From positions 1 through 56,203 of IMG/VR virus record IMGVR_UViG_2778260992_000008: a stretch of DNA of 56,203 nt, one strand, 5' to 3'. A program made the position numbers and the translations under genes. Within the stretch, counting starts at the first letter, position 1; each line of letters begins with the position of its first letter. The notes under the pieces are model-generated. The model saw only the letters and a list, made by a program, of their open reading frames with translations. It had not been told where the DNA came from and did not search any database. Origin of the DNA: a virus. Lineage: Duplodnaviria; Heunggongvirae; Uroviricota; Caudoviricetes. Shown piece after piece: positions 1 through 56,203 of the stretch.

Positions 1-234
1 TTACGTTTTATCAGTATCAGAAAGCAAGCCTACTGACTTAAAGAACTGCATTACATCTTGATAACGATATACAGGGCGCGACGTAGTTGATAATTCGTGA
101 AGCGGTTCAGGAAATGGGGTACCTGCCGCTTCCCATTTCATTTTCCATACTCTAAAGGTTGTCCTACTTATTCCGCCAAGCATTTCCCTGATCCGTGCCG
201 TAGTTAATAATAATGTCGCGGTTTTATCCATCAC
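1..234 (-). CDS. AlpA/Xis-family small DNA-binding protein (candidate excisionase or regulator)
   Basis: 77-aa ORF; HTH-like segment LLLTTARIREMLGGISRTTFRVW; last gene of the minus-strand arm. Confidence 0.45.
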   Translation of the reverse strand: MMDKTATLLLTTARIREMLGGISRTTFRVWKMKWEAAGTPFPEPLHELSTTSRPVYRYQDVMQFFKSVGLLSDTDKT

Positions 235-46030: not shown

Positions 46031-49000
46031 ATGGGCGGCGGTGGTGGTAAAACAAAAACACCTGAATTATTGAATGATAACTTATATCATAAACAGTTTT
46101 ATCGCGTGCTGGATATATTAAGCGAAGGACCGATTTATGGTCCCGTTAATACGACCGCGCCGTTAAACTGCGTGATGTTGAATGATACACCTATAACCGA
46201 TGAAGTGGGAAATACCAGTATTCCGGGCGTTAGTGTCGCCTGGCGGCCTGGTACGCTCGACCAATCCCCGATTAATGGTTTTAATGCCATCGAATCGACG
46301 GTAATGGTTAACGCAAAAGTAACGCATGACACCCCACTGGTTAGGACGGTATCAGACCCGAACGTGACGCGCGTCCGGTTAAATATTGGCGTGGACTCAC
46401 TAGTGGAAAGCGACAGTGAATCTAATCAGCACAATACAACGGTTATAATGGCGATCGACGTTAAGCCTTCGTCATCGTCTACCTGGTCGGCGGTTAAAGC
46501 CGTTTCTATCACTGGTAAAATTAGCGGCGAATATCTGGAATCACACATCATTGACGCGCCAAGTGAAAGCCCGTTTGATATTCGCGTCCGGCGCGTCACC
46601 GCTGACAGTGTAAGCGACTTATTGCAGAATGATACCCGCTGGAATAGCTACAGTGAGATCATCGACGATAACCTGGCTTACCCTTACACAGCCGTAGCAG
46701 GTGCGGTAATTGACCATGACCAGTACGCTGACACACCCACCCGCACTTATCATCTGCGCGGCCTGATTGTTGATGTACCGGATAACTACGACCCGGAAAC
46801 GCGTACTTATTCCGGTTTATGGCTGGGTGGCTTTAAAAAGGCGTACACCAATAACCCCGCGTGGTTGTTCCGCTACCTGATCAAAAACGACCGTTTCGGC
46901 CTTGCTCGACAGGCTGGTTATATTGATGTTGACGATGGCGCTTTATACACGCTTTCACAATATTGCGATCAGTTGGTTGATGATGGCTACGGCGGAAAAG
47001 AGCCACGCCTTACCCTTAACGCCTATATCACCGAACAAAAAAGCGCCCGTGATTTACTGGATAACATCGCCGGAATGTTCCGTGGCATCGCATTATGGGA
47101 CGGGCAGCGCCTTACCGTGATGATTGATGCGCCGCAAGACCCGATTGCAACCATCACAAACGCAAACGTCGTTGATGGCGCTTTCACCCGTTCAAGCATC
47201 GCCCGTGCCGAACGTTACAACGCGGTTGTTGTGTCCTGGACCGACCCGGAAAACGGCTGGGAGCAAACAAAAGAGTATGTATCAGATGATGAACTGATCG
47301 CCCGTGACGGTTACAACGAAACCACGCTGGAGGCGTTCGGATGCACATCACGCGGGCAAGCATACCGCGCGGGCAAATGGCTGATAGAAACAGCAAAACG
47401 CGAGCCGTCAAAATTCACGTTTAAAATGGCCCGTGACGCGATTCACTTTACGCCAGGGGATATCATCGAGATCCTCGACAATAACCGCGCGGGCGCTCGT
47501 TTAGGCGGTCGTATCGTGGCGAACAATGGCAAGGTGATAACGGTCGATAAGGTTGATTCAGAATACATTACCGCAGGTGACACCATCAGCTTACTCGATA
47601 GCGATGGCAAATTTAAAAAGCACCAGATTACCGGGGTGAATGGAAATGAGATCACCTTAGCGGCGGCCCCGGCATGGATACGCAACGGGACCGTTTTCGC
47701 TGTATCCACTGAAGCAGCAAAACCCGTTTTGTGTCGGATCACCAGTGTAGCCGAAACTGAAAATAACAGCGTGTACACCATCGAGGCCGCGCAGCACGAC
47801 CCAAATAAACAGGCGGTAGTCGATGAAGGCACAATCTTCGAAATCAGCAGCGACACGCTAAATCACTTCCGCGTGCCGAACATCGAAAATTTGAAAGTGG
47901 TAAACGTTGGATCAGAGACAGTTCAATGCCGCGCCACCTGGGAGACACAGACAACAACGCGTAGCCTGACTTTTGAGATCCGCATATACAACGCAGACGG
48001 GCGCGTGGTGGCAAGCTACGAAACGCAGAATTACCGATATGAATTTTTCGGCCTTGAATGCGGGAATTACTCGTTGGGCGTGCGCGGGCGTAATGATGCT
48101 GGCATGAAGGGTGCGGAAACGCTGGTAGATCTCATCGTTGGAGCGCCAGCCGCGCCGACTGGTGTTAATTGGGTGCCAGGTGTTTTCCAGGCAACCGTCT
48201 ACCCGATCAACAGCACCACACTAACGACCGATACCACTTACGAATTTTATTATGCCGGGGAAAACCAGATCACTGACTTCAGCCAGGTAACAACATCAGC
48301 GCAATTCACCGGGCGCGGGTATCAATGGACCTTCGGCGGGATGGCAACGGGGCACACGTATTACGTTTACGTGCGCACAAAAAACGCTTTCGGTGTATCT
48401 GACTTTATCGAAGCCAGCGGTAAACCTTCCGAAAACTTCGAAGAAATCACGGATGCCGTGCTGAATGAAGTTATGGAAGGCGAACAATTCCAGAACATGA
48501 TCAAGGACTCCATAGACGAAGTAACAGGCGGTTTAATGGGTGACGTGGAAGAACTGAAACAAACCACGGTAGACATTGACCAGGCTGTTACCGATCTGAA
48601 GGAATCAACCGCCGATCTGGAAGAACGTGTAAAAAACAATGAGGACGGAATTGGGGAGCACGAAAGCCAGATTAACGAAATCAGCGTAGAATTGACGGAG
48701 CAGGAAAACGAGCTAATGCAGACCCGCGCCAGCCTGCAAAACGCAGCCATTGCGCTTATGAATAACTCATTAGCCAACACCAGCACCCGCACCACGTTAA
48801 CGGCGCAATATAAGAGCCAGAAAGCGGAAACGAAAGCAGAAATTGAGCGCATTGATTCAGTTATTGCTACAGAGAAGGAGGCGACCGCGCAGGCGCTTAC
48901 CACGCTTGAAAGCAAGGTGAATGACGAAATCAGCGCCAACTTAACCGAAATGCAGCAGACGATCGCAACGCTGGAGGAATCGACAAGCCAATCAATCGAA

Positions 49001-50005
49001 AAACTGGAAAGCCAGGTAAACGAGGATATCCAGGCCAGCTTAACGGAGATTAACCAGACAATCACCAATCTGGAATCATCCACGGCTGAATCCATTAATA
49101 ACCTTGAAGCGAAAGTAGACGGCGATATCTCATCAGCGATCAGCAGTATGGATCAGGCATTAGCTACGCATGAACAAGCCAACGCTACACAGTTTGCCAG
49201 CCTGCAATCTCAGATTGATGAGAATGAAGCGGCAATCACTGAAACTAATCAGACGATTGCAACCAATGAGCAAGCGACCGCGCAGAAGCTGGAGCAATTG
49301 CAAGCCCAAATCGATGATGATGTGTCGGCAGCCATTACCGAAATGCAAACGGCACTTGCTACCCACGAAAAGGCCAACGCTACACAGTTTGCGGAGATTA
49401 GCGCATCACTGGAAGCAAACGAAGCAACGATCACGGAGTGGGGCGAAGCGTTTACATCTTACAAGGAATCAACCGCCACGCAGATCGAAAGCATCACGGC
49501 CTCAATCGACGGGCAATCGGTATCAATCGAAGAAAACAAAACCGCAATTGCCGGTATTGAAACAGATATGTCGGCAACGTGGAGCATTAAGATCGCTACT
49601 GACAATAACGGCATGAAGTATGCGTCCGGGATTTCGTTAGGTATGACCGGATCAGGAAGTAGCACACAATCACAATGCATTTTCCTTGTTGACCGCTTTG
49701 TGCTAATGACGGCGGCAAACGGCACATATACGACACCTTTCTATGTTACAAACGGTGCAATGTATGTGCGCGAAGCGTTTATTAAAGACGCATCAATCAC
49801 TAACGCGAAAATTGGATCTTACATCCAGTCCAATAACTATGTTTCCGGTAGCACTGGCTGGAAGCTGGATAAATCCGGTACATTCGAAAACTATGGCGCG
49901 GTGAGTGGTGAAGGCGCAATGAAATTAACAAATACCACTATTTCAGTAAAAGACGGTAACGGCGTTTTACGCGTCCAAATTGGGCGGATTACCGGATCAT
50001 GGTAG
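46031..50005 (+). CDS. host specificity / central tail fibre protein J
   Basis: 1324 aa; conserved gpJ N-terminal region; quasi-repetitive coiled-coil region ~48500-49500. Confidence 0.85.
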   Translation: MGGGGGKTKTPELLNDNLYHKQFYRVLDILSEGPIYGPVNTTAPLNCVMLNDTPITDEVGNTSIPGVSVAWRPGTLDQSPINGFNAIESTVMVNAKVTHDTPLVRTVSDPNVTRVRLNIGVDSLVESDSESNQHNTTVIMAIDVKPSSSSTWSAVKAVSITGKISGEYLESHIIDAPSESPFDIRVRRVTADSVSDLLQNDTRWNSYSEIIDDNLAYPYTAVAGAVIDHDQYADTPTRTYHLRGLIVDVPDNYDPETRTYSGLWLGGFKKAYTNNPAWLFRYLIKNDRFGLARQAGYIDVDDGALYTLSQYCDQLVDDGYGGKEPRLTLNAYITEQKSARDLLDNIAGMFRGIALWDGQRLTVMIDAPQDPIATITNANVVDGAFTRSSIARAERYNAVVVSWTDPENGWEQTKEYVSDDELIARDGYNETTLEAFGCTSRGQAYRAGKWLIETAKREPSKFTFKMARDAIHFTPGDIIEILDNNRAGARLGGRIVANNGKVITVDKVDSEYITAGDTISLLDSDGKFKKHQITGVNGNEITLAAAPAWIRNGTVFAVSTEAAKPVLCRITSVAETENNSVYTIEAAQHDPNKQAVVDEGTIFEISSDTLNHFRVPNIENLKVVNVGSETVQCRATWETQTTTRSLTFEIRIYNADGRVVASYETQNYRYEFFGLECGNYSLGVRGRNDAGMKGAETLVDLIVGAPAAPTGVNWVPGVFQATVYPINSTTLTTDTTYEFYYAGENQITDFSQVTTSAQFTGRGYQWTFGGMATGHTYYVYVRTKNAFGVSDFIEASGKPSENFEEITDAVLNEVMEGEQFQNMIKDSIDEVTGGLMGDVEELKQTTVDIDQAVTDLKESTADLEERVKNNEDGIGEHESQINEISVELTEQENELMQTRASLQNAAIALMNNSLANTSTRTTLTAQYKSQKAETKAEIERIDSVIATEKEATAQALTTLESKVNDEISANLTEMQQTIATLEESTSQSIEKLESQVNEDIQASLTEINQTITNLESSTAESINNLEAKVDGDISSAISSMDQALATHEQANATQFASLQSQIDENEAAITETNQTIATNEQATAQKLEQLQAQIDDDVSAAITEMQTALATHEKANATQFAEISASLEANEATITEWGEAFTSYKESTATQIESITASIDGQSVSIEENKTAIAGIETDMSATWSIKIATDNNGMKYASGISLGMTGSGSSTQSQCIFLVDRFVLMTAANGTYTTPFYVTNGAMYVREAFIKDASITNAKIGSYIQSNNYVSGSTGWKLDKSGTFENYGAVSGEGAMKLTNTTISVKDGNGVLRVQIGRITGSW

Positions 50006-50055: not shown

Positions 50056-50367
50056 ATGGCTACTTTCGGCGTAGCAACCTGGGACGCCAGCGGCAAAGCT
50101 AACAACTACGGGATCAAACCTTCAGTCGTGGTTGGTTATATTTCCCTATCCTCCGGGCAAGTATCCGGCACGTATACTTTTACAGTGCCGACCGGATGTA
50201 AATTATCCTACGGTATGACACTTGATTATGGCACAACGTCAACGACGCGCAGAAAGATCACTATTTCGGGTGGTACTGTTTCCATTTCCTCAGCAGGAAA
50301 CACGGTAGGCGCTAATATATGGCCCGCGTCACAGTGTGAAATTGTTATATTTGCGGAGGTGGCTTAA
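50056..50367 (+). CDS. hypothetical tail-associated protein (MATFG paralog 1)
   Basis: 103 aa; RBS AAGGAGGTG; begins MATFGVATWDASG. Confidence 0.45.
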   Translation: MATFGVATWDASGKANNYGIKPSVVVGYISLSSGQVSGTYTFTVPTGCKLSYGMTLDYGTTSTTRRKITISGGTVSISSAGNTVGANIWPASQCEIVIFAEVA

Positions 50368-50960
50368 TGGCAACCTTCGGAGCTTATTTGAGATTAAGTA
50401 ACGGGAATATTTTCGTTACACCGGAAGCGACGCCGCTTTGCTTATATAAACGGGTGGCATTAACATCATCGAATCAAACCGTCGCCGTGCCACCCGGAAA
50501 ACCCGTGATGGTATTTGTGAAAAGCACTACCGCCGCCGCTGTATTAGCTTATAGAAATAGTTCATCGACTTTACTGATCGGTGCTGGTTCGGGGTATGCG
50601 TATATTTTCAGTATTTTCCCGCCATCGCTGCCGAAATGGGGAATGGCTATCTGGAACGCTTCCGGGGAACTGGTGCTAACTAATGAATCAAGAATATTAA
50701 CAGACCTTGTAACCGTGGGGACAGCAGGATCAAGTGGCGGGATTTATATAGACCAGACGTTATCCGGTTCTTATGCTATTTGCCCCCAATTGTTAGGGGC
50801 GCTCGTTGGACAGGGTAGTGCCTCCATTTATGCGGCGGCTTATTACAACGGAAGCACGACCAGAATTTACGGTATCCAGGCGGGTAGCGTATATGCACCA
50901 ACTGGCTATATCAACCACGGGAACGCTATCACCGCCATTAAAACCGACGCCTATGATTAA
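50367..50960 (+). CDS. hypothetical tail-associated protein (MATFG paralog 2)
   Basis: 197 aa; ATGA overlap; begins MATFGAYL and shares WNASGE with paralog 1. Confidence 0.45.
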   Translation: MATFGAYLRLSNGNIFVTPEATPLCLYKRVALTSSNQTVAVPPGKPVMVFVKSTTAAAVLAYRNSSSTLLIGAGSGYAYIFSIFPPSLPKWGMAIWNASGELVLTNESRILTDLVTVGTAGSSGGIYIDQTLSGSYAICPQLLGALVGQGSASIYAAAYYNGSTTRIYGIQAGSVYAPTGYINHGNAITAIKTDAYD

Positions 50961-51196
50961 TTCAGTTCCGGGCAATCCGTTTTCTTGAAGTGGTCAACGC
51001 TTACCCATTGAAAATTAAACGGATACCCGGCCTTAACCATTTTATGACCGCCAACATCCGCGACACCGAAGACTGCAACCGCATATTCATTACCGCCAGT
51101 TTGATAAATTGCCGTGCATTCACGTTTAGGCATGTCAGCGCAACCAACCAGACCAGCAACCATTGCAACGATAGCGATATTTTTTAAGCCTTTCAT
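50957..51196 (-). CDS. Cor-like lipoprotein (candidate superinfection exclusion)
   Basis: Signal plus lipobox MKGLKNIAIVAMVAGLVGC; ATG 51196 with RBS GGAGGG; between J and side tail fibre, where cor sits in lambdoid phages. Confidence 0.45.
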   Translation of the reverse strand: MKGLKNIAIVAMVAGLVGCADMPKRECTAIYQTGGNEYAVAVFGVADVGGHKMVKAGYPFNFQWVSVDHFKKTDCPELN

Positions 51197-51355
51197 TGTC
51201 TTACCCTCCGTTGTTTCGTTGGTTGTAGTATCCACAAACTGTATTTTCTCAACATTGATATAAATCAACAAATACATTTTGTATAAACCAAAAATGTAAC
51301 ATAGATCACAAAATGGTAGAATTATTCCGTTAATTAACATAATGGAGTCATTGCA

Positions 51356-54300
51356 ATGATCTACACCATTGGAAATATTGCCGTATCCGGTAACACGCTG
51401 ACCGGGACGGGCACAAATTTTAAAGCACCCTTATCTATGATCCGCGTAGGGTGCACCGTTATTGTAAAAAGCGACCCTATCCAGATCTTTTCCATCACTG
51501 AAATTGTCAGTGAAACGGAATTATCTGTGACCCCGGCAGCATCACCGGATATTCCGGCGGGTACTGCTTACAGTATTTTATTGTGTGATTCGATCTCAGT
51601 TGATGGGCTGGCGCAAGACGTAGCGGAAGCATTACGGTATTTTACCGGGCAAGAGTCAGAGATCTATGCTGCCGTTGAATACTGGAAAAATTATGGTGAT
51701 GCCGCGCAGGTGGAAGCATTGTTAACCGCTATCCAGGCGGAAACAGCGCAATCAACCGCCAACGCCGCAGCCACCGCCGCAGACGTTGAAACAACCGCCG
51801 CAGCACTGAATGAAGCTGTAGCAGCAAAAGACGCAGCGGAAGCAGCAGCCGCCAACGCAGAGCAGCAGGCCGCCACCGCCACCACGCAGGCGACTACCGC
51901 TACCGAACAAGCTACCGCCGCAGCGGAAGCAGCAGCAGAAGCAAAAGATCATCGTGGCACGGCTTACATCTGGATGAATGAGGCTATCAGCCAGGCGACA
52001 ACGGCTACCGAGCAAGCGACCATCGCTACCGAAAAAGCAACGGCAGCGACCGATGCCGCCACCGCCGCACAGGAAGCACTGACGCTTACCCAGGAAGCCC
52101 GCGACACTGCCACCCAACAGGCAACCATCGCTACCGAACAGGCCACTATCGCTACTGACGCCGCCAACGCCGCCGAAACAAGCGCCGCCAACGTCGCAGC
52201 AGACGAACAAGAAATTGCAGCCAATGCAGCCGCAGCAGCAGAAGCAGCCACCGCCGCCGCATTATCAGAAGCTAATGCGAAAACTTACGCGGAGCAAGCA
52301 AAAGCACTATCAGAAGACTCATTATCCCTTATCGGCTTGGGCGCTGATCGCCGTGATTGGCCCGATTGCACGACTGATCCATCAGCCTATATTGGCTTTG
52401 TTCGTCTGGAAGAAGCCACCGCGACGGGTTTCCCGTCTATCGCTTCCGGTGAAGTCTACCTGGTAGGCTGGCTGGCACGCGGTGACGGCCTGTTCATCAA
52501 TGGTTGTTTCGTAGGTACGAATACTCGCTCGCTCTACACCTACATGTATAACAATGCCGATGGGACTTACGGCTGGACCCGTCACGCCCGGAAGGACGAA
52601 GTAAGTCGCTTTGTTCAGCGCGGCGGTGAATCGGAGGTGTACAGTGGCGATGGTCGTAAATATTTTTTCATAAACAACATGGACGGGACTTATCATTGGG
52701 GGGCTTACGATACAAGTACGGGGCAAACCGTTCCGTTACAAGTATCTTGCGGCGGTACAGGTGGGCGTAATGCCGGACAAGCCCGCACCAGCTTACAGGT
52801 GATGTACGAACAAAAAACTGACCTCGGAGATACGGATCTAAACACCCTGACTGGTGAGTATTCCGGTTTCTATCGCCAGAAAACCAACGCAAAAGCCACC
52901 ACTGAACATAATTACCCGTGCAACTATGCGGGCGCGCTTGTCGTGCTGGGGAATAGTGCTAATAGTGATTCGGGATGTACGCAAATTTATTACCCCTATA
53001 ACTATAGTGATTTGTATTATACCCGTTGGTGTAATGGTTCTGATCTTAATTGGTCCGACTGGTGCGAGCATCGCGGCTACTGGACAATCCTTAATAACAT
53101 TGGCTTAGGTGCATCACCTCGCCATTGTAATGATCTCACGGGTGATCCATTCTCTTATATTGGCTTCTTACGCCTGACTCCGGCGGGGACCACTGGCTAT
53201 CCTGACGTCGCAACAGAAGCGGGCGAGGGCGCTTTGAGTGGTTACATCTGCCGTAACGATGGTGAACCTTCATACTCCGGCTTATTTGTCGGTGCTACGA
53301 CTGGCGCGGCCTACACCTACCGCTATAGCTTAGGTGGTGGCGTTCAATGGCAAAGAATTCCGCGAGCTAATGACTTAAGCCGTTTTGTGCAAAACGACTC
53401 AACAACGCGCATGTATGGCCCGACAGGCGATCGCTTCTTTGAGATCCACACCAACGGTAATTGGGGTGTTTACAGTACCGCTGATTCCGCGTGGATACCG
53501 TTAGGTATTGCACAGGGCGGCACAGGTGCAACAGACGCAGCCACGGCCCGCACTAATTTAGGGTTAGGCACTACAAACGATGTGCAGCATCAGAATCTGA
53601 CGCTGACCCGTACAAGCGACGGGACAGATGGTTGGGTAGCTGGTGGTATGACCAAATCTAAACTTTTAGGTACTGACGGCACTGTACGCGCCGAGGGCTG
53701 GATGTATGCAGAATGCAACGCAAGTAGCCCAACGCAAATGACCTTTGCCATCCATTCAGCGACCGAAGGCTACAAATATTTGTCTTTCAATACGAAAGGC
53801 CAGATCCTGGCTGAAACGGCTATTTTCCGTTCAACCTACGTTAACCCGTTGGTTATTGAAAGCACTACCCCGACAGTCAGCTTTAACGAAACCGACCGCC
53901 CGGATGGCGCACCTTATTACAACTTTATTGCCGATGGCGGCAACTGGCGTATTCAGAAAAACGGCGACGGGTATGATGGTGAATATGTAATAAGTTATGA
54001 CTATAAACTCAACGAGATTCAAGTACCTAACTTGCTTGCTACGGCTATCCAGAAACCTTTAAACCTCGATCAGACCAAAACAAATCTGCAAATCCCTTAC
54101 ACCGGGGTGAGCCATTGGACCGACTACAACGCCCCGGAAGGCGCGGAAGCAACCAAATACTATCCGGTTATTATTTCTCAACCGTCATACTTCAACGGTG
54201 ATTTCTTTGTCGAAGTCGCTATGCGCACACGCTCAATACAGGGCGCTGAAGAACCTAACTGTAACGCCATTCACCTATGGATGCGTGATGGTGGCTGGTC

Positions 54301-56203
54301 TGATATGGGTCAAGGTTGTTTCGGTCATTATTGCGCTTACGCTTCCAACGAAGTAGCTATCCTTTGTGTGCGCGGTACTGACAAAGGCCAATATCCACAC
54401 AATGCAATCTATGTTCGCGGTGACGCTTTCCCTATTCGTCTTGCCGCCACGGTTGGCTGCACTGTAACAATACCTACAGCAGACTGGAAACCTTCAACCG
54501 CAAGCGATAGCCCGACTTATAAATGGGGTATCACTGATTCCGCCGATGGCCTTGATCTCGATACCTATGGTATCGCGGGTAACTTGCTTGATTTCACGCA
54601 TGGTAAAAGCGGTTTTTATTCTGACAAGCAATTCCGTCATGCTAATGGCGATGGCTATCTTTATAACCACATGACGGTTGGCGCTCTCAATATAACATCC
54701 ACGGAAGCGTTTAACTTCCGTGGCACGTCTAACTTTTACGGGACCGTTAATTGTGGTTATGGCTATTATTCTGTAAGCGATGATGTAACGAAATGCGCAT
54801 ACTATTCACGCCTGATTGACTCATCAGGGAACATTCTCGGACAAGGTGAATTCCGCGTAGGAGAATACGCCGCGCAAATTGTTGTACGCGATCTCACAGA
54901 TACCGCCGCGCATAAATTCTTTAACTTCAACAAAGACGGCACATTCCATGCGCCTAACGGTTGCGTTACCCACACTGGCGCGGACTGGAGCGGGCACACA
55001 TCCGATAACATAAACAAATTTAAGCCTATTGCTGGCAGCACTAACGGGCCATCAGATCCGACCGTTTTTGGTGGTTTCCATGTTAGTTTCAGCGGTAACT
55101 ATGCTACCCAATTTGCTGGGCGTTTATCCCAATTTTGGGCCAGAAGCATTGAAGCGGGAGTAGATCAAGGCTGGAAACGCTTATTGACTACAGATGACTT
55201 AAGCGCATCCACTGATTTAACAGTCAACAGCCTGACCACTACAACAGCCGTTAGATCTGGTGGTGGCGATCTGCATATTCTCGGTGATACCGCATACCGT
55301 GAAGCGATGAATTGCGGCCTTACTGGTTATGACTCCACCGGACAGAATATGAGCTGGTATCTCGGCACATATAAGAGCCAGGAATATAAAGTTTACTTCG
55401 AAGACTATTTAGGTTCCGAAGGTATCGAGCTTAACGGTGATAATGGTTCCGTTAAATTGTACACTGGCGGCCTGGCGACAGGAACACCAGCAGAGCTTAC
55501 GCTTTATGATAACCAGTGTTTATCAACTGTAAACTATACCATCAAACCCGCTTCGTCCTCATGGGATAGATATTTCACAATGGAAAATAGCGGCACAGCT
55601 TACCATAACGGCACTTATCAATTTTGGGGTAATGCTGTTTATGATGGTAGTAACATTACAGGTGATCGCTATAGTGTCTTTGAATGGAAGTTAGACACTG
55701 GTTATTTAGCCTATTTGGAACGTTCAGCCGATGGTTCTCAGAAGCTACAGGTTAACGGCGGCATACATTGCACAGCAGTTACTCAGTCCTCCGACCGTGA
55801 TTTGAAGGACAATATCGAGGTTATACCGGACGCCACCGCCGCGATCCGCAAGATGAACGGCTATACCTACACTCTGAAAGAAAACGGCCTACCTTACGCC
55901 GGGATTATCGCACAGGAAGCAATGGAGGCCATCCCGGAAGCGGTAGGATCTTTCATGTGGGAAGGTGAAGAACTGGAAGGCCCGACACAGGACGGTCGCG
56001 AACTACGCGAAACGGCACGTTACCTCAATGTTGACTATGCCGCCGTGACTGGTTTACTTGTTCAGGTGGCACGCGAAACAGATGATCGCGTTACCGCGCT
56101 GGAAGAAGAAAACGCCAGCTTACGCGCGAACATTGCTGTTATGGATGAACGCATCACAAAACTTGAAGCACTGGTCCAGCAGTTGACCGGAAGCGAAGAA
56201 TAA
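51356..56203 (+). CDS. side tail fibre protein with C-terminal intramolecular chaperone (S74-like) domain
   Basis: 1615 aa; Ala/Thr-rich repeats ~51700-52300; duplicated ~150-aa domain; C-terminal SSDRDLKDNIEVIPDATAAIRKMNGYTYTL; stop at window end. Confidence 0.75.
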   Translation: MIYTIGNIAVSGNTLTGTGTNFKAPLSMIRVGCTVIVKSDPIQIFSITEIVSETELSVTPAASPDIPAGTAYSILLCDSISVDGLAQDVAEALRYFTGQESEIYAAVEYWKNYGDAAQVEALLTAIQAETAQSTANAAATAADVETTAAALNEAVAAKDAAEAAAANAEQQAATATTQATTATEQATAAAEAAAEAKDHRGTAYIWMNEAISQATTATEQATIATEKATAATDAATAAQEALTLTQEARDTATQQATIATEQATIATDAANAAETSAANVAADEQEIAANAAAAAEAATAAALSEANAKTYAEQAKALSEDSLSLIGLGADRRDWPDCTTDPSAYIGFVRLEEATATGFPSIASGEVYLVGWLARGDGLFINGCFVGTNTRSLYTYMYNNADGTYGWTRHARKDEVSRFVQRGGESEVYSGDGRKYFFINNMDGTYHWGAYDTSTGQTVPLQVSCGGTGGRNAGQARTSLQVMYEQKTDLGDTDLNTLTGEYSGFYRQKTNAKATTEHNYPCNYAGALVVLGNSANSDSGCTQIYYPYNYSDLYYTRWCNGSDLNWSDWCEHRGYWTILNNIGLGASPRHCNDLTGDPFSYIGFLRLTPAGTTGYPDVATEAGEGALSGYICRNDGEPSYSGLFVGATTGAAYTYRYSLGGGVQWQRIPRANDLSRFVQNDSTTRMYGPTGDRFFEIHTNGNWGVYSTADSAWIPLGIAQGGTGATDAATARTNLGLGTTNDVQHQNLTLTRTSDGTDGWVAGGMTKSKLLGTDGTVRAEGWMYAECNASSPTQMTFAIHSATEGYKYLSFNTKGQILAETAIFRSTYVNPLVIESTTPTVSFNETDRPDGAPYYNFIADGGNWRIQKNGDGYDGEYVISYDYKLNEIQVPNLLATAIQKPLNLDQTKTNLQIPYTGVSHWTDYNAPEGAEATKYYPVIISQPSYFNGDFFVEVAMRTRSIQGAEEPNCNAIHLWMRDGGWSDMGQGCFGHYCAYASNEVAILCVRGTDKGQYPHNAIYVRGDAFPIRLAATVGCTVTIPTADWKPSTASDSPTYKWGITDSADGLDLDTYGIAGNLLDFTHGKSGFYSDKQFRHANGDGYLYNHMTVGALNITSTEAFNFRGTSNFYGTVNCGYGYYSVSDDVTKCAYYSRLIDSSGNILGQGEFRVGEYAAQIVVRDLTDTAAHKFFNFNKDGTFHAPNGCVTHTGADWSGHTSDNINKFKPIAGSTNGPSDPTVFGGFHVSFSGNYATQFAGRLSQFWARSIEAGVDQGWKRLLTTDDLSASTDLTVNSLTTTTAVRSGGGDLHILGDTAYREAMNCGLTGYDSTGQNMSWYLGTYKSQEYKVYFEDYLGSEGIELNGDNGSVKLYTGGLATGTPAELTLYDNQCLSTVNYTIKPASSSWDRYFTMENSGTAYHNGTYQFWGNAVYDGSNITGDRYSVFEWKLDTGYLAYLERSADGSQKLQVNGGIHCTAVTQSSDRDLKDNIEVIPDATAAIRKMNGYTYTLKENGLPYAGIIAQEAMEAIPEAVGSFMWEGEELEGPTQDGRELRETARYLNVDYAAVTGLLVQVARETDDRVTALEEENASLRANIAVMDERITKLEALVQQLTGSEE

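What the first reader, a model, noticed from the sequence alone, without database searches (positions are those of the whole stretch)
51356..56203. Very long side tail fibre with Ala/Thr-rich repeats, a duplicated domain and a self-cleaving chaperone-type C-terminus
The 1615-aa protein has degenerate ATxATEQAT repeats (about 51700-52300) and two homologous ~150-aa domains (about 52340-52800 and 53110-53580). The C-terminus (SSDRDLKDNIEVIPDATAAIRKMNGYTYTL...) resembles intramolecular-chaperone domains that are auto-cleaved after folding. The repeat and domain content is likely to determine host range.
Basis: partly seen in the sequence, partly recalled or inferred. Interest (0 to 1): 0.4.

Follow-up and report, generated by a model that had tools for sequence, protein, structure and literature searches.

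The report
Prophage side tail fibre, self-cleaving chaperone
This is an ordinary, if unusually long and modular, side tail fibre gene of an E. coli prophage, whose last 137 residues are a well-known self-cleaving folding chaperone.

Summary
All four observations hold. ORF 51356-56203 encodes 1615 aa. It has an Ala/Thr-rich repeat region, two homologous ~155-aa units (aa 325-480 and 581-735, 41% identity, E=2e-31) and a Pfam Peptidase_S74 C-terminus (E=2.8e-12).

The repeats are heptads with Ala at the a and d positions, with no proline in 223 residues, so they most likely form a trimeric coiled-coil shaft about 31 nm long. The N-terminal ~113 aa are the anchor domain found in T1-like lateral fibres, some lambdoid side tail fibres and the RAD2 depolymerase DpK2.

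The motif S1479-D-R-D-L-K1484 aligns with the scissile Ser1264 and Lys1269 of phage T5 pb1 and is invariant in relatives. Cleavage would release a 137-aa chaperone.

The gene follows gpJ in a prophage of the mEp021/MagusPhagus group. It is the last prophage gene, with no tfa gene and host mppA 102 bp downstream.

Relatives lack or swap whole modules. The most variable segment is the tip just before the cleavage site, which makes the tip the likelier specificity determinant than the repeats.

The exact protein is already in NCBI (WP_244585270.1, auto-annotated). It is a new member of a known kind and of low interest. Autocleavage itself is inferred, not shown.

The parts
51356..56203 (+). Side (lateral) tail fibre gene, 1615 aa plus stop. 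It is identical to NCBI WP_244585270.1.
51356..51694 (+). N-terminal anchor domain (aa 1-113), which attaches the fibre to the tail tip.
   Evidence: The region matches the N-terminus of DpK2 (7lzj/7vyv/7vz3) over aa 3-179 with E=1e-25. tblastn finds it in 897 phage records, including T1-like lateral fibres, the HK140/mEp043/mEp234 side tail fibres and RAD2. It is 94-96% conserved among relatives.
51698..52324 (+). Ala/Thr-rich heptad-repeat region (aa 115-323), predicted to be a trimeric alpha-helical coiled-coil shaft about 31 nm long.
   Evidence: Lag-7 identity is 0.33 against 0.18 +/- 0.022 in shuffles, and the apolar period is 3.48. Positions a and d are 75-88% apolar, mostly Ala, with 0 Pro and 2 Gly in 223 aa. 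The DNA repeats have a 21-nt period. The homologous DpK2 N-terminal region was seen as an extended triple-helical bundle (PMC8552709). Relatives carry indels here.
52328..52795 (+). Duplicated unit, copy 1 (aa 325-480). It consists of a ~95-aa N-subdomain and a ~68-aa fibre repeat that ends in the GGTGxxxAxxARxxL motif.
   Evidence: The AF2 core is beta-rich with pLDDT 76-87.
52838..53080 (+). Knob-like domain (aa ~495-575) between the two copies, resembling the R-type pyocin fibre knob.
53096..53560 (+). Duplicated unit, copy 2 (aa 581-735), ending in GGTGATDAATARTNLGLG.
   Evidence: The motif also matches the SU10 tail fibre 7z47_D. This copy is more variable among relatives than copy 1.
53561..55207 (+). 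Middle to distal shaft (aa 736-1284). It includes the widely shared block aa ~900-1290.
   Evidence: PHROG 6578 matches with E=1e-287. tblastn finds the block in 239 phage records, including MagusPhagus, mEp044, T5-like Salmonella phages, Seurat-like phages and rV5-like phages. It is 88-95% conserved among close relatives.
55208..55789 (+). Distal tip of the mature fibre (aa 1285-1478). The hypervariable stretch aa 1361-1478 (DNA 55436-55789) is the candidate receptor-binding region.
   Evidence: Pairwise identity is 0.63-0.69 here, against 0.88-0.98 in the flanks. Module junctions in P0042 and P0054 fall at aa ~1281-1285. Ayreon's side tail fibre is 53% identical over the tip plus chaperone.
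55790..56200 (+). S74-type intramolecular chaperone (aa 1479-1615, 137 aa). The predicted nucleophile is S1479 (55790-55792) and the predicted general base is K1484 (55805-55807). The predicted scissile bond is S1478|S1479.
56036..56188 (+). C-terminal long helix of the chaperone (aa 1561-1611), probably a trimerising coiled coil.
   Evidence: AF2 predicts a helix at model residues 826-876 with pLDDT 65-79. phmmer matches coiled-coil proteins here. T5's chaperone has a central trimeric coiled coil (PMC4690869).
46031..50005 (+). Context: the central tail fibre gpJ homologue (1324 aa), immediately upstream in the tail module.
   Evidence: phrog_31 matches with E=0. Pfam FNIII-A_GpJ, Phage-tail_3, Ig_J and Phage_Tail_Tip are recorded for it.
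50957..51340 (-). Context: a Cor-like superinfection-exclusion gene on the opposite strand, between J and the fibre gene. The host contig's gene call is shorter (79 aa, 50957-51196).
   Evidence: phrog_1119 matches with E=1.8e-23.

Best explanation
The gene encodes the homotrimeric side (lateral) tail fibre of a temperate E. coli siphovirus of the mEp021/MagusPhagus group. Running from N- to C-terminus, its parts are:

1. An anchor domain that docks on the tail tip.
2. A coiled-coil shaft of about 31 nm, built from Ala-rich heptads.
3. A tandem pair of beta-rich units, with a pyocin-type knob after the first.
4. A long beta-structured shaft shared with many coliphage fibres.
5. A variable distal tip that most likely binds a surface glycan, such as O-antigen or LPS, as the primary reversible receptor.
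6. A 137-aa S74 intramolecular chaperone.

The proposed mechanism is as follows. The chaperone trimerises through its C-terminal helix and templates folding of the interdigitated tip. Once the trimer is correctly folded, Ser1479, activated by Lys1484, cleaves the Ser1478-Ser1479 bond. The chaperone is released and the receptor-binding tip is exposed. This explains why no separate tfa gene is needed.

Shown here: the domain homologies, the catalytic motif and its conservation, the gene context, and the modular variation among relatives. Inferred: trimerisation, actual cleavage, the coiled-coil structure and the nature of the receptor.
For: Tail fibre identity and position:
- PHROG tail-fibre families cover the protein.
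- The N-terminal anchor is homologous to DpK2 and to 897 phage records annotated as lateral or side tail fibres.
- The gene lies downstream of gpJ.
- The structural region is about 82% identical in DNA to the mEp021-group phages and MagusPhagus.

S74 chaperone:
- The Pfam S74 match scores 47.2 bits against a cut-off of 22.
- S1479, D1480, R1481 and K1484 are invariant in 24 and in 34 relatives.
- The motif aligns with T5 T1263-S1264-DARL-K1269, whose roles were shown by the S1264A mutant and by structures (PMC4690869).
- S16 gp37 aligns in the same way.
- The predicted chaperone is 137 aa, against 133 aa in T5.
- AF2 predicts a C-terminal helix.

Context and other parts:
- The fibre gene is the last prophage gene. 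A terminator-like hairpin lies 30 nt after the stop and host mppA starts 102 bp downstream, so there is no tfa.
- Heptad statistics come, and DpK2's triple-helix bundle.
- The tip is hypervariable next to a conserved chaperone.
Against: - No experimental evidence exists for expression, trimerisation or cleavage of this protein.
- Pairwise BLASTP against the T5 pb1 C-terminus is not significant. Homology rests on the Pfam profile and the motif alignment.
- The Arg/Asp folding-sensor residues described for T5 could not be located by sequence.
- Monomer AF2 models were poor, with mean pLDDT of 58-63 and only 31-47 over the S74 part. Fold searches gave TM <= 0.2.
- No receptor information is available.
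- The window lacks the integrase, so the inducibility of the prophage is unknown.
Confidence: 0.85

Rival explanations
1. The protein is an enzymatic tailspike or depolymerase rather than a non-enzymatic fibre. On this reading the N-terminal anchor carries a glycan-degrading domain, as in DpK2 or the K1F endosialidase, which also uses an S74 chaperone.
Against: The depolymerase match is confined to aa 3-179, which is the anchor and helical bundle and not the catalytic beta-helix. No Pfam enzyme, beta-helix or lyase domain was found anywhere, even at E<=5 on sub-fragments. PHROG and phage-record annotations of all blocks are tail fibre or lateral tail fibre. The 1615-aa length with a ~210-aa coiled coil is typical of a fibre.
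Confidence: 0.05
2. The S74-like domain is present but is not cleaved. It would remain as a permanent C-terminal cap, or be an inactive relic, and the fibre would function as the full-length chain.
For: Cleavage was not observed here. The upstream folding-sensor Arg could not be identified. According to the T5 paper, some auto-chaperone C-termini, such as the P22 tailspike fin, are not cleaved.
Against: The catalytic Ser and Lys sit at the correct spacing and are invariant across 34 relatives, while the adjacent tip diverges. The whole chaperone is 88-98% conserved, which points to purifying selection on function. In T5 an uncleaved chaperone masks receptor binding.
Confidence: 0.07
3. The Ala/Thr-rich region is a disordered low-complexity linker, or possibly a site of antigenic variation or glycosylation, rather than a structured coiled coil.
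For: Composition is extreme at about 39% Ala and 16% Thr. This region was not included in either AF2 model. It shows indels among relatives.
Against: The region has strict 7-residue periodicity with apolar residues at a and d, an apolar period of 3.48, no proline and only 2 glycines in 223 aa. The homologous part of DpK2 is an extended triple-helical bundle in cryo-EM.
Confidence: 0.08
4. The gene is a silent remnant in a defective prophage and makes no functional fibre.
For: No integrase lies within the window. No sigma-70-like promoter was found directly upstream. No complete E. coli RefSeq genome carries a match covering at least 80% of the gene.
Against: The 4.8-kb ORF is intact, with the same length and architecture in about 25 relatives at 79-90% identity. 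The window holds a full set of head, tail, replication and repressor genes. Gene order matches the cultured phage MagusPhagus, in which an integrase-sized gene follows the fibre gene. The integrase is therefore expected just outside the left end of the window.
Confidence: 0.1

Closest known systems
[quoted passage not shown]
   Same: Both are long lateral fibres of siphoviruses. Both end in an S74 intramolecular chaperone of similar size (133 aa in T5, 137 aa here). The scissile Ser and the Lys at +5 align. Neither needs a separate assembly chaperone. In T5 the tip binds O-antigen and is unmasked by cleavage.
   Different: No detectable sequence similarity exists outside the S74 motif. T5's bullet-shaped receptor domain was not recovered by fold search. 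T5 pb1 attaches through a collar protein and lacks this N-terminal anchor, the Ala-heptad coil and the duplicated units.
Phage lambda side tail fibre Stf with its Tfa chaperone
   Same: The genomic position is the same: after J and moron genes, and next to the attachment site. The role as an accessory lateral fibre is the same. Both have a long Ala/Ser/Thr-rich proximal region. This last point comes from my own knowledge of lambda Stf and was not tested here.
   Different: No tfa gene follows here. The lambda-type N-terminal domain PF08400 was not detected. Folding is predicted to be intramolecular through S74.
Klebsiella phage RAD2 depolymerase DpK2 (PDB 7LZJ; PMC8552709) and T1-like (Drexlerviridae) lateral tail fibres
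   Same: The N-terminal anchor and the start of the helical bundle are homologous (aa 3-179, E=1e-25, about 45% identity).
   Different: Beyond about aa 180, DpK2 carries a catalytic beta-helix and beta-sandwich. Here there is a fibre shaft and an S74 chaperone instead.
Tail fibres of Escherichia phages MagusPhagus (PP925836, 1160 aa) and Ayreon (MF807953, 'side tail fiber protein')
   Same: These are the closest cultured relatives. MagusPhagus is 72% identical in the anchor and 67% identical in the aa 900-1290 block, and sits in the same genome type. Ayreon is 53% identical over the tip plus chaperone.
   Different: Both are shorter. Neither matches over the full length. The megablast match covers only 19% of the gene for MagusPhagus and 6% for Ayreon.
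R-type pyocin fibre PA0620 knob domains (PDB 6CL6/6CU2)
   Different: The similarity is weak (E=0.0073). The knob here is internal, between two repeated units, rather than near the receptor-binding foot.
K1F endosialidase C-terminal intramolecular chaperone domain (founder of MEROPS/Pfam S74)
   Same: It belongs to the same Pfam family, PF13884, with the same Ser-Lys autoproteolysis logic as described in PMC4690869.
   Different: There it is attached to an enzymatic tailspike of a podovirus. It was not aligned directly here.

Membership tests
Peptidase S74 / C-terminal intramolecular chaperone domain (PF13884) | Profile match above the curated threshold | tested here: met
   PF13884 matches aa 1479-1530 with E=2.8e-12 and 47.2 bits against a cut-off of 22.
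Peptidase S74 / C-terminal intramolecular chaperone domain (PF13884) | Nucleophilic Ser at the domain start, with the activating Lys five residues downstream | tested here: met
   S1479 and K1484 align with T5 S1264 and K1269. Both are invariant in 24 and in 34 relatives.
Peptidase S74 / C-terminal intramolecular chaperone domain (PF13884) | Position at the extreme C-terminus of a fibre or spike protein, with a size of about 130-150 aa | tested here: met
   aa 1479-1615 is 137 aa and ends at the stop codon. T5's chaperone is 133 aa.
Peptidase S74 / C-terminal intramolecular chaperone domain (PF13884) | [quoted passage not shown] | tested here: inconclusive
   A long helix is predicted at aa 1561-1611 with pLDDT 65-79, and phmmer matches coiled-coil proteins there. 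The rest of the domain was modelled at pLDDT 31-47 as a monomer. The trimeric state was not modelled.
Peptidase S74 / C-terminal intramolecular chaperone domain (PF13884) | Folding-sensor Arg/Asp from the neighbouring chain upstream of the scissile bond | tested here: inconclusive
   R1438 and D1459 are invariant upstream. Their spacing differs from T5's R1250 and D1239, and no reliable alignment of the tip was obtained.
Peptidase S74 / C-terminal intramolecular chaperone domain (PF13884) | Autoproteolytic release of the domain after trimer folding | not testable with these tools
   This needs protein expression or virion mass spectrometry.
Siphovirus side/lateral tail fibre (T1-like / DpK2-type anchor) | Homologous N-terminal tail-attachment domain | tested here: met
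   aa 3-179 match DpK2 with E=1e-25. 897 phage records match, 846 of them over at least 80% of aa 1-120.
Siphovirus side/lateral tail fibre (T1-like / DpK2-type anchor) | Gene located in the tail module downstream of the central fibre gpJ | tested here: met
   J lies at 46031-50005, followed by three small moron genes and then this gene.
Lambda Stf/Tfa-type side tail fibre | Separate tail-fibre assembly chaperone gene (tfa) immediately downstream | tested here: not met
   In the host contig a terminator-like hairpin and the host mppA-like gene follow within 102 bp.
Lambda Stf/Tfa-type side tail fibre | PF08400 prophage tail fibre N-terminal domain | tested here: not met
   Pfam gave no hit on the whole protein or on aa 1-325 at E<=5.
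R-type pyocin fibre knob domain | Sequence or fold similarity to the PA0620 knob | tested here: inconclusive
T5 pb1-type receptor-binding 'bullet' domain | Homology of the tip preceding the chaperone | tested here: not met
   BLASTP found no similarity. No pb1 hit appeared in the Foldseek search of the PDB, although the model was of low confidence.

The most novel reading that the evidence does not exclude
The internal module, made of a ~95-aa subdomain, a ~68-aa fibre repeat and a pyocin-type knob, could be more than shaft. It might be an additional, laterally exposed receptor-binding site. Its gain or loss would occur by recombination between the IGLGA-flanked units, giving 1 to about 4 copies among otherwise near-identical prophage fibres. 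That would tune host range or reach and would make this a multi-receptor fibre with both a lateral and a terminal binding domain.
Probability: 0.15. Interest if true: 0.4.

Novelty: new member of a known kind. Interest (0 to 1): 0.15.

Why it matters
The finding matters little for discovery. Every module has many relatives in cultured coliphages, and the exact protein is already in NCBI with an automatic tail-fibre/S74 annotation.

It has practical value as a well-delimited example of a chaperone-independent side tail fibre. The module junctions are clear: the IGLGA units at aa 326 and 582, and the DDLSAS junction at aa ~1280. These could guide chimeric-fibre engineering of lambda-like particles, because a tip plus S74 cassette needs no cognate Tfa.

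Tried and rejected
- **NCBIfam scan of the whole protein.** It gave nothing relevant.
- **Pfam on five sub-fragments at E<=5.** It found no further domains.
- **Self-BLAST of the whole protein.** It returned only the self-hit. Chunked BLAST was needed to find the duplication.
- **Pairwise BLASTP against the T5 pb1 C-terminus.** It was not significant.
- **Word-indexed homologue search with the duplicated module.** It returned only 16 mostly partial or chimeric proteins. The exhaustive HMMER search was more informative.
- **Search for an att core repeat.** I looked for an exact repeat of 13 nt or more between the 150 bp downstream of the gene and the window. None was found.
- **Depolymerase reading.** It was considered and rejected because the similarity stops at the anchor and helical bundle.
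Full report
**Observation**

The window contains an intact ORF at 51356-56203 on the + strand. It starts with ATG and encodes 1615 aa, and its stop codon is the last codon of the window.

- **Composition.** Residues 101-300 are about 39% Ala and 16% Thr. The literal ATxATEQAT motif occurs three times, and a relaxed form occurs five to six times.
- **DNA repeats.** Tandem Repeats Finder and the repeat finder both see 21-nt periodic copies at 51854-52173.
- **Duplication.** A chunked self-BLAST and a pairwise BLASTP show that aa 325-480 and aa 581-735 are homologous. They share 41% identity over 158 columns, E=2e-31.
- **C-terminus.** Pfam PF13884 (Peptidase_S74, 'chaperone of endosialidase') matches aa 1479-1530 at E=2.8e-12, with 47.2 bits against a cut-off of 22.

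**What the repeats are**

The period is seven residues. Identity at lag 7 is 0.33, against 0.18 +/- 0.022 in 2000 shuffles, none of which exceeded 0.26. The apolar/polar signal has a period of 3.48 residues.

Set in heptad register, two positions spaced 3 and 4 apart are 75-88% apolar, almost all Ala. There is no proline and there are only two glycines in 223 residues. This is the signature of an alpha-helical coiled coil with Ala at the a and d positions. About 210 residues would give a rod of roughly 31 nm.

The protein's first 179 residues align with the N-terminus of the Klebsiella phage RAD2 depolymerase DpK2 (PDB 7LZJ and relatives, E=1e-25). The authors of that structure saw this part in cryo-EM as 'an extended triple helical bundle' (PMC8552709). 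The coiled-coil reading is therefore inferred from sequence statistics and supported by a homologue. It is not shown directly.

**Identity and context**

The N-terminal ~113 aa occur in 897 phage records. These include T1-like phages annotated as 'lateral tail fiber protein', the lambdoid phages HK140, mEp043 and mEp234 annotated as 'side tail fiber protein', and RAD2. PHROG tail-fibre families cover most of the protein.

Upstream lie the following genes:
- the tape measure protein and the M/L/K/I homologues;
- a 1324-aa gpJ homologue at 46031-50005;
- two small membrane or outer-membrane morons;
- a Cor-like exclusion gene on the opposite strand.

The structural region is about 82% identical in DNA to the temperate mEp021-group phages and to phage MagusPhagus.

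The exact protein is NCBI WP_244585270.1, 'tail fiber domain-containing protein [Escherichia coli]'. On a host contig that carries it, the fibre gene is followed by a terminator-like hairpin 30 nt after the stop. A host SBP_bac_5 (mppA-like) gene starts 102 bp downstream, followed by genes for an MscS-type channel, a DUF2534 protein, a Usp protein, a Crp/Fnr-type regulator, a DNA methyltransferase (ogt-like) and an AbgT-type transporter. I read this gene order as the E. coli mppA-ynaI-uspE-fnr-ogt-abgT region from my own knowledge. The fibre gene is thus the last gene of the prophage, and there is no tail-fibre assembly (tfa) gene.

**The S74 chaperone**

The motif S1478-S1479-D-R-D-L-K1484 aligns with T5 pb1 T1263-S1264-D-A-R-L-K1269. 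In T5 the S1264A mutation blocks autoproteolysis, Lys1269 activates the serine, the Thr1263-Ser1264 bond is cut, and the 133-residue chaperone masks the receptor site until it is released (PMC4690869).

S1479, D1480, R1481 and K1484 are invariant across 24 and across 34 relatives. Salmonella phage S16 gp37 aligns in the same way. The predicted chaperone is 137 aa and ends in a long predicted helix at aa 1561-1611.

Three points remain open:
- Pairwise BLASTP against T5 is not significant, so homology rests on the Pfam profile plus the motif.
- The upstream Arg/Asp folding sensor could not be located.
- Cleavage itself is untested.

**The duplicated unit and the knob**

An exhaustive HMMER search with the two copies found 757 cluster representatives at E<1e-3, 174 at E<1e-10 and 30 at E<1e-30.

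- The full ~165-aa unit is confined to about 40 representatives.
- Its C-terminal ~68 residues (RFVQ...GGTGAxDAxxARxNL) recur 3-5 times per protein in many fibres.
- The last ~25 residues recur up to 18 times per protein.

The 'domain' is therefore a ~95-aa subdomain fused to a common fibre repeat.

Monomer AF2 models were of low confidence, and fold searches otherwise gave only generic phage-fibre or beta-propeller-like hits.

**Modularity among relatives**

About 25 relatives share the full architecture at 79-90% identity. Other relatives differ by whole modules:

| Relative | Difference from this protein |
|---|---|
| P0027, P0028 | lack aa 325-580, joined between the IGLGA motifs at aa 326 and 582 |
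| P0035 | also lacks about 125 residues of the coil |
| P0042 | joins aa ~675 to aa ~1281 |
| P0054 | keeps aa 1-737 and 866-1285, then has a different, non-S74 C-terminus (PF13385) |

The aa 900-1290 block occurs in 239 phage records of several families, and the tip plus chaperone occurs in 315.

Sliding-window conservation shows four variable stretches: the coil (aa 161-280), copy 2 (aa 561-720), aa 881-920 and the tip (aa 1361-1480). The anchor is 94-96% conserved and the chaperone 88-98%. A variable tip abutting a conserved chaperone is the pattern expected if the tip carries receptor specificity. The repeats more likely set fibre length.

**Comparison and verdict**

In function and maturation logic the protein resembles T5 pb1. 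In genomic position and role it resembles lambda Stf, but it fails two lambda-type features: there is no tfa gene and no PF08400 N-terminal domain. Its anchor is of the T1-like/DpK2 type.

No complete E. coli RefSeq genome and no cultured phage record carries a match covering at least 80% of the gene. This exact mosaic is therefore uncommon, but every piece is familiar. This is a new member of a well-known kind, of low general interest.

Noticed in passing
window 50056-51340: Three small accessory genes sit between gpJ and the fibre gene. They are an outer-membrane protein (phrog_557), a membrane-associated moron (phrog_425) and a Cor-like superinfection-exclusion gene on the minus strand (phrog_1119). 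Cor is associated with FhuA-dependent phages, which hints that this phage's gpJ uses FhuA. The ORF list gives Cor as 127 aa, but the host-contig gene call gives 79 aa.
   Followed up: partly
window 1-228 and 56201-56203; L001 14849-14950: The window is cut exactly at gene boundaries. It starts at the stop codon of a minus-strand Xis-like DNA-binding gene and ends at the fibre gene's stop codon. No integrase lies inside the window. In MagusPhagus a 411-aa gene follows the fibre gene, so int and attL probably lie just left of the window. The prophage sits immediately upstream of the host mppA-like gene. No att core repeat of 13 nt or more was found.
   Followed up: partly
L001 14878-14901 (30 nt beyond the window end): A strong terminator-like hairpin with a 10-bp stem (GAAACGAGGC...GCCTCGTTTC) and a TTTTT tail directly follows the fibre gene.
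   Followed up: yes
window 51197-51355: An AT-rich intergenic stretch (about 39% GC) lies between Cor and the fibre start. The simple scan found no sigma-70-like promoter on the + strand there. The fibre gene may depend on late read-through transcription that runs antisense across cor.
   Followed up: no
proteins P0121, P0125, P0128: Several 'partial' E. coli database proteins combine the duplicated fibre unit with unrelated Pfam domains from terminase, GntR/HTH and ParB families. These are probably assembly or gene-calling chimeras rather than real fusions.
   Followed up: no
phage records MG065635-MG065672: Records named 'Campylobacter phage' (128-143 kb) carry the same fibre blocks, at the same identity, as rV5-like coliphages. 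This suggests that the host labels are questionable.
   Followed up: no
window 55400-55799 versus 51800-52199: GC content varies along the gene. It is 62% in the Ala-heptad region, 44% in the hypervariable tip and 53% in the S74 part. This fits a mosaic origin.
   Followed up: no
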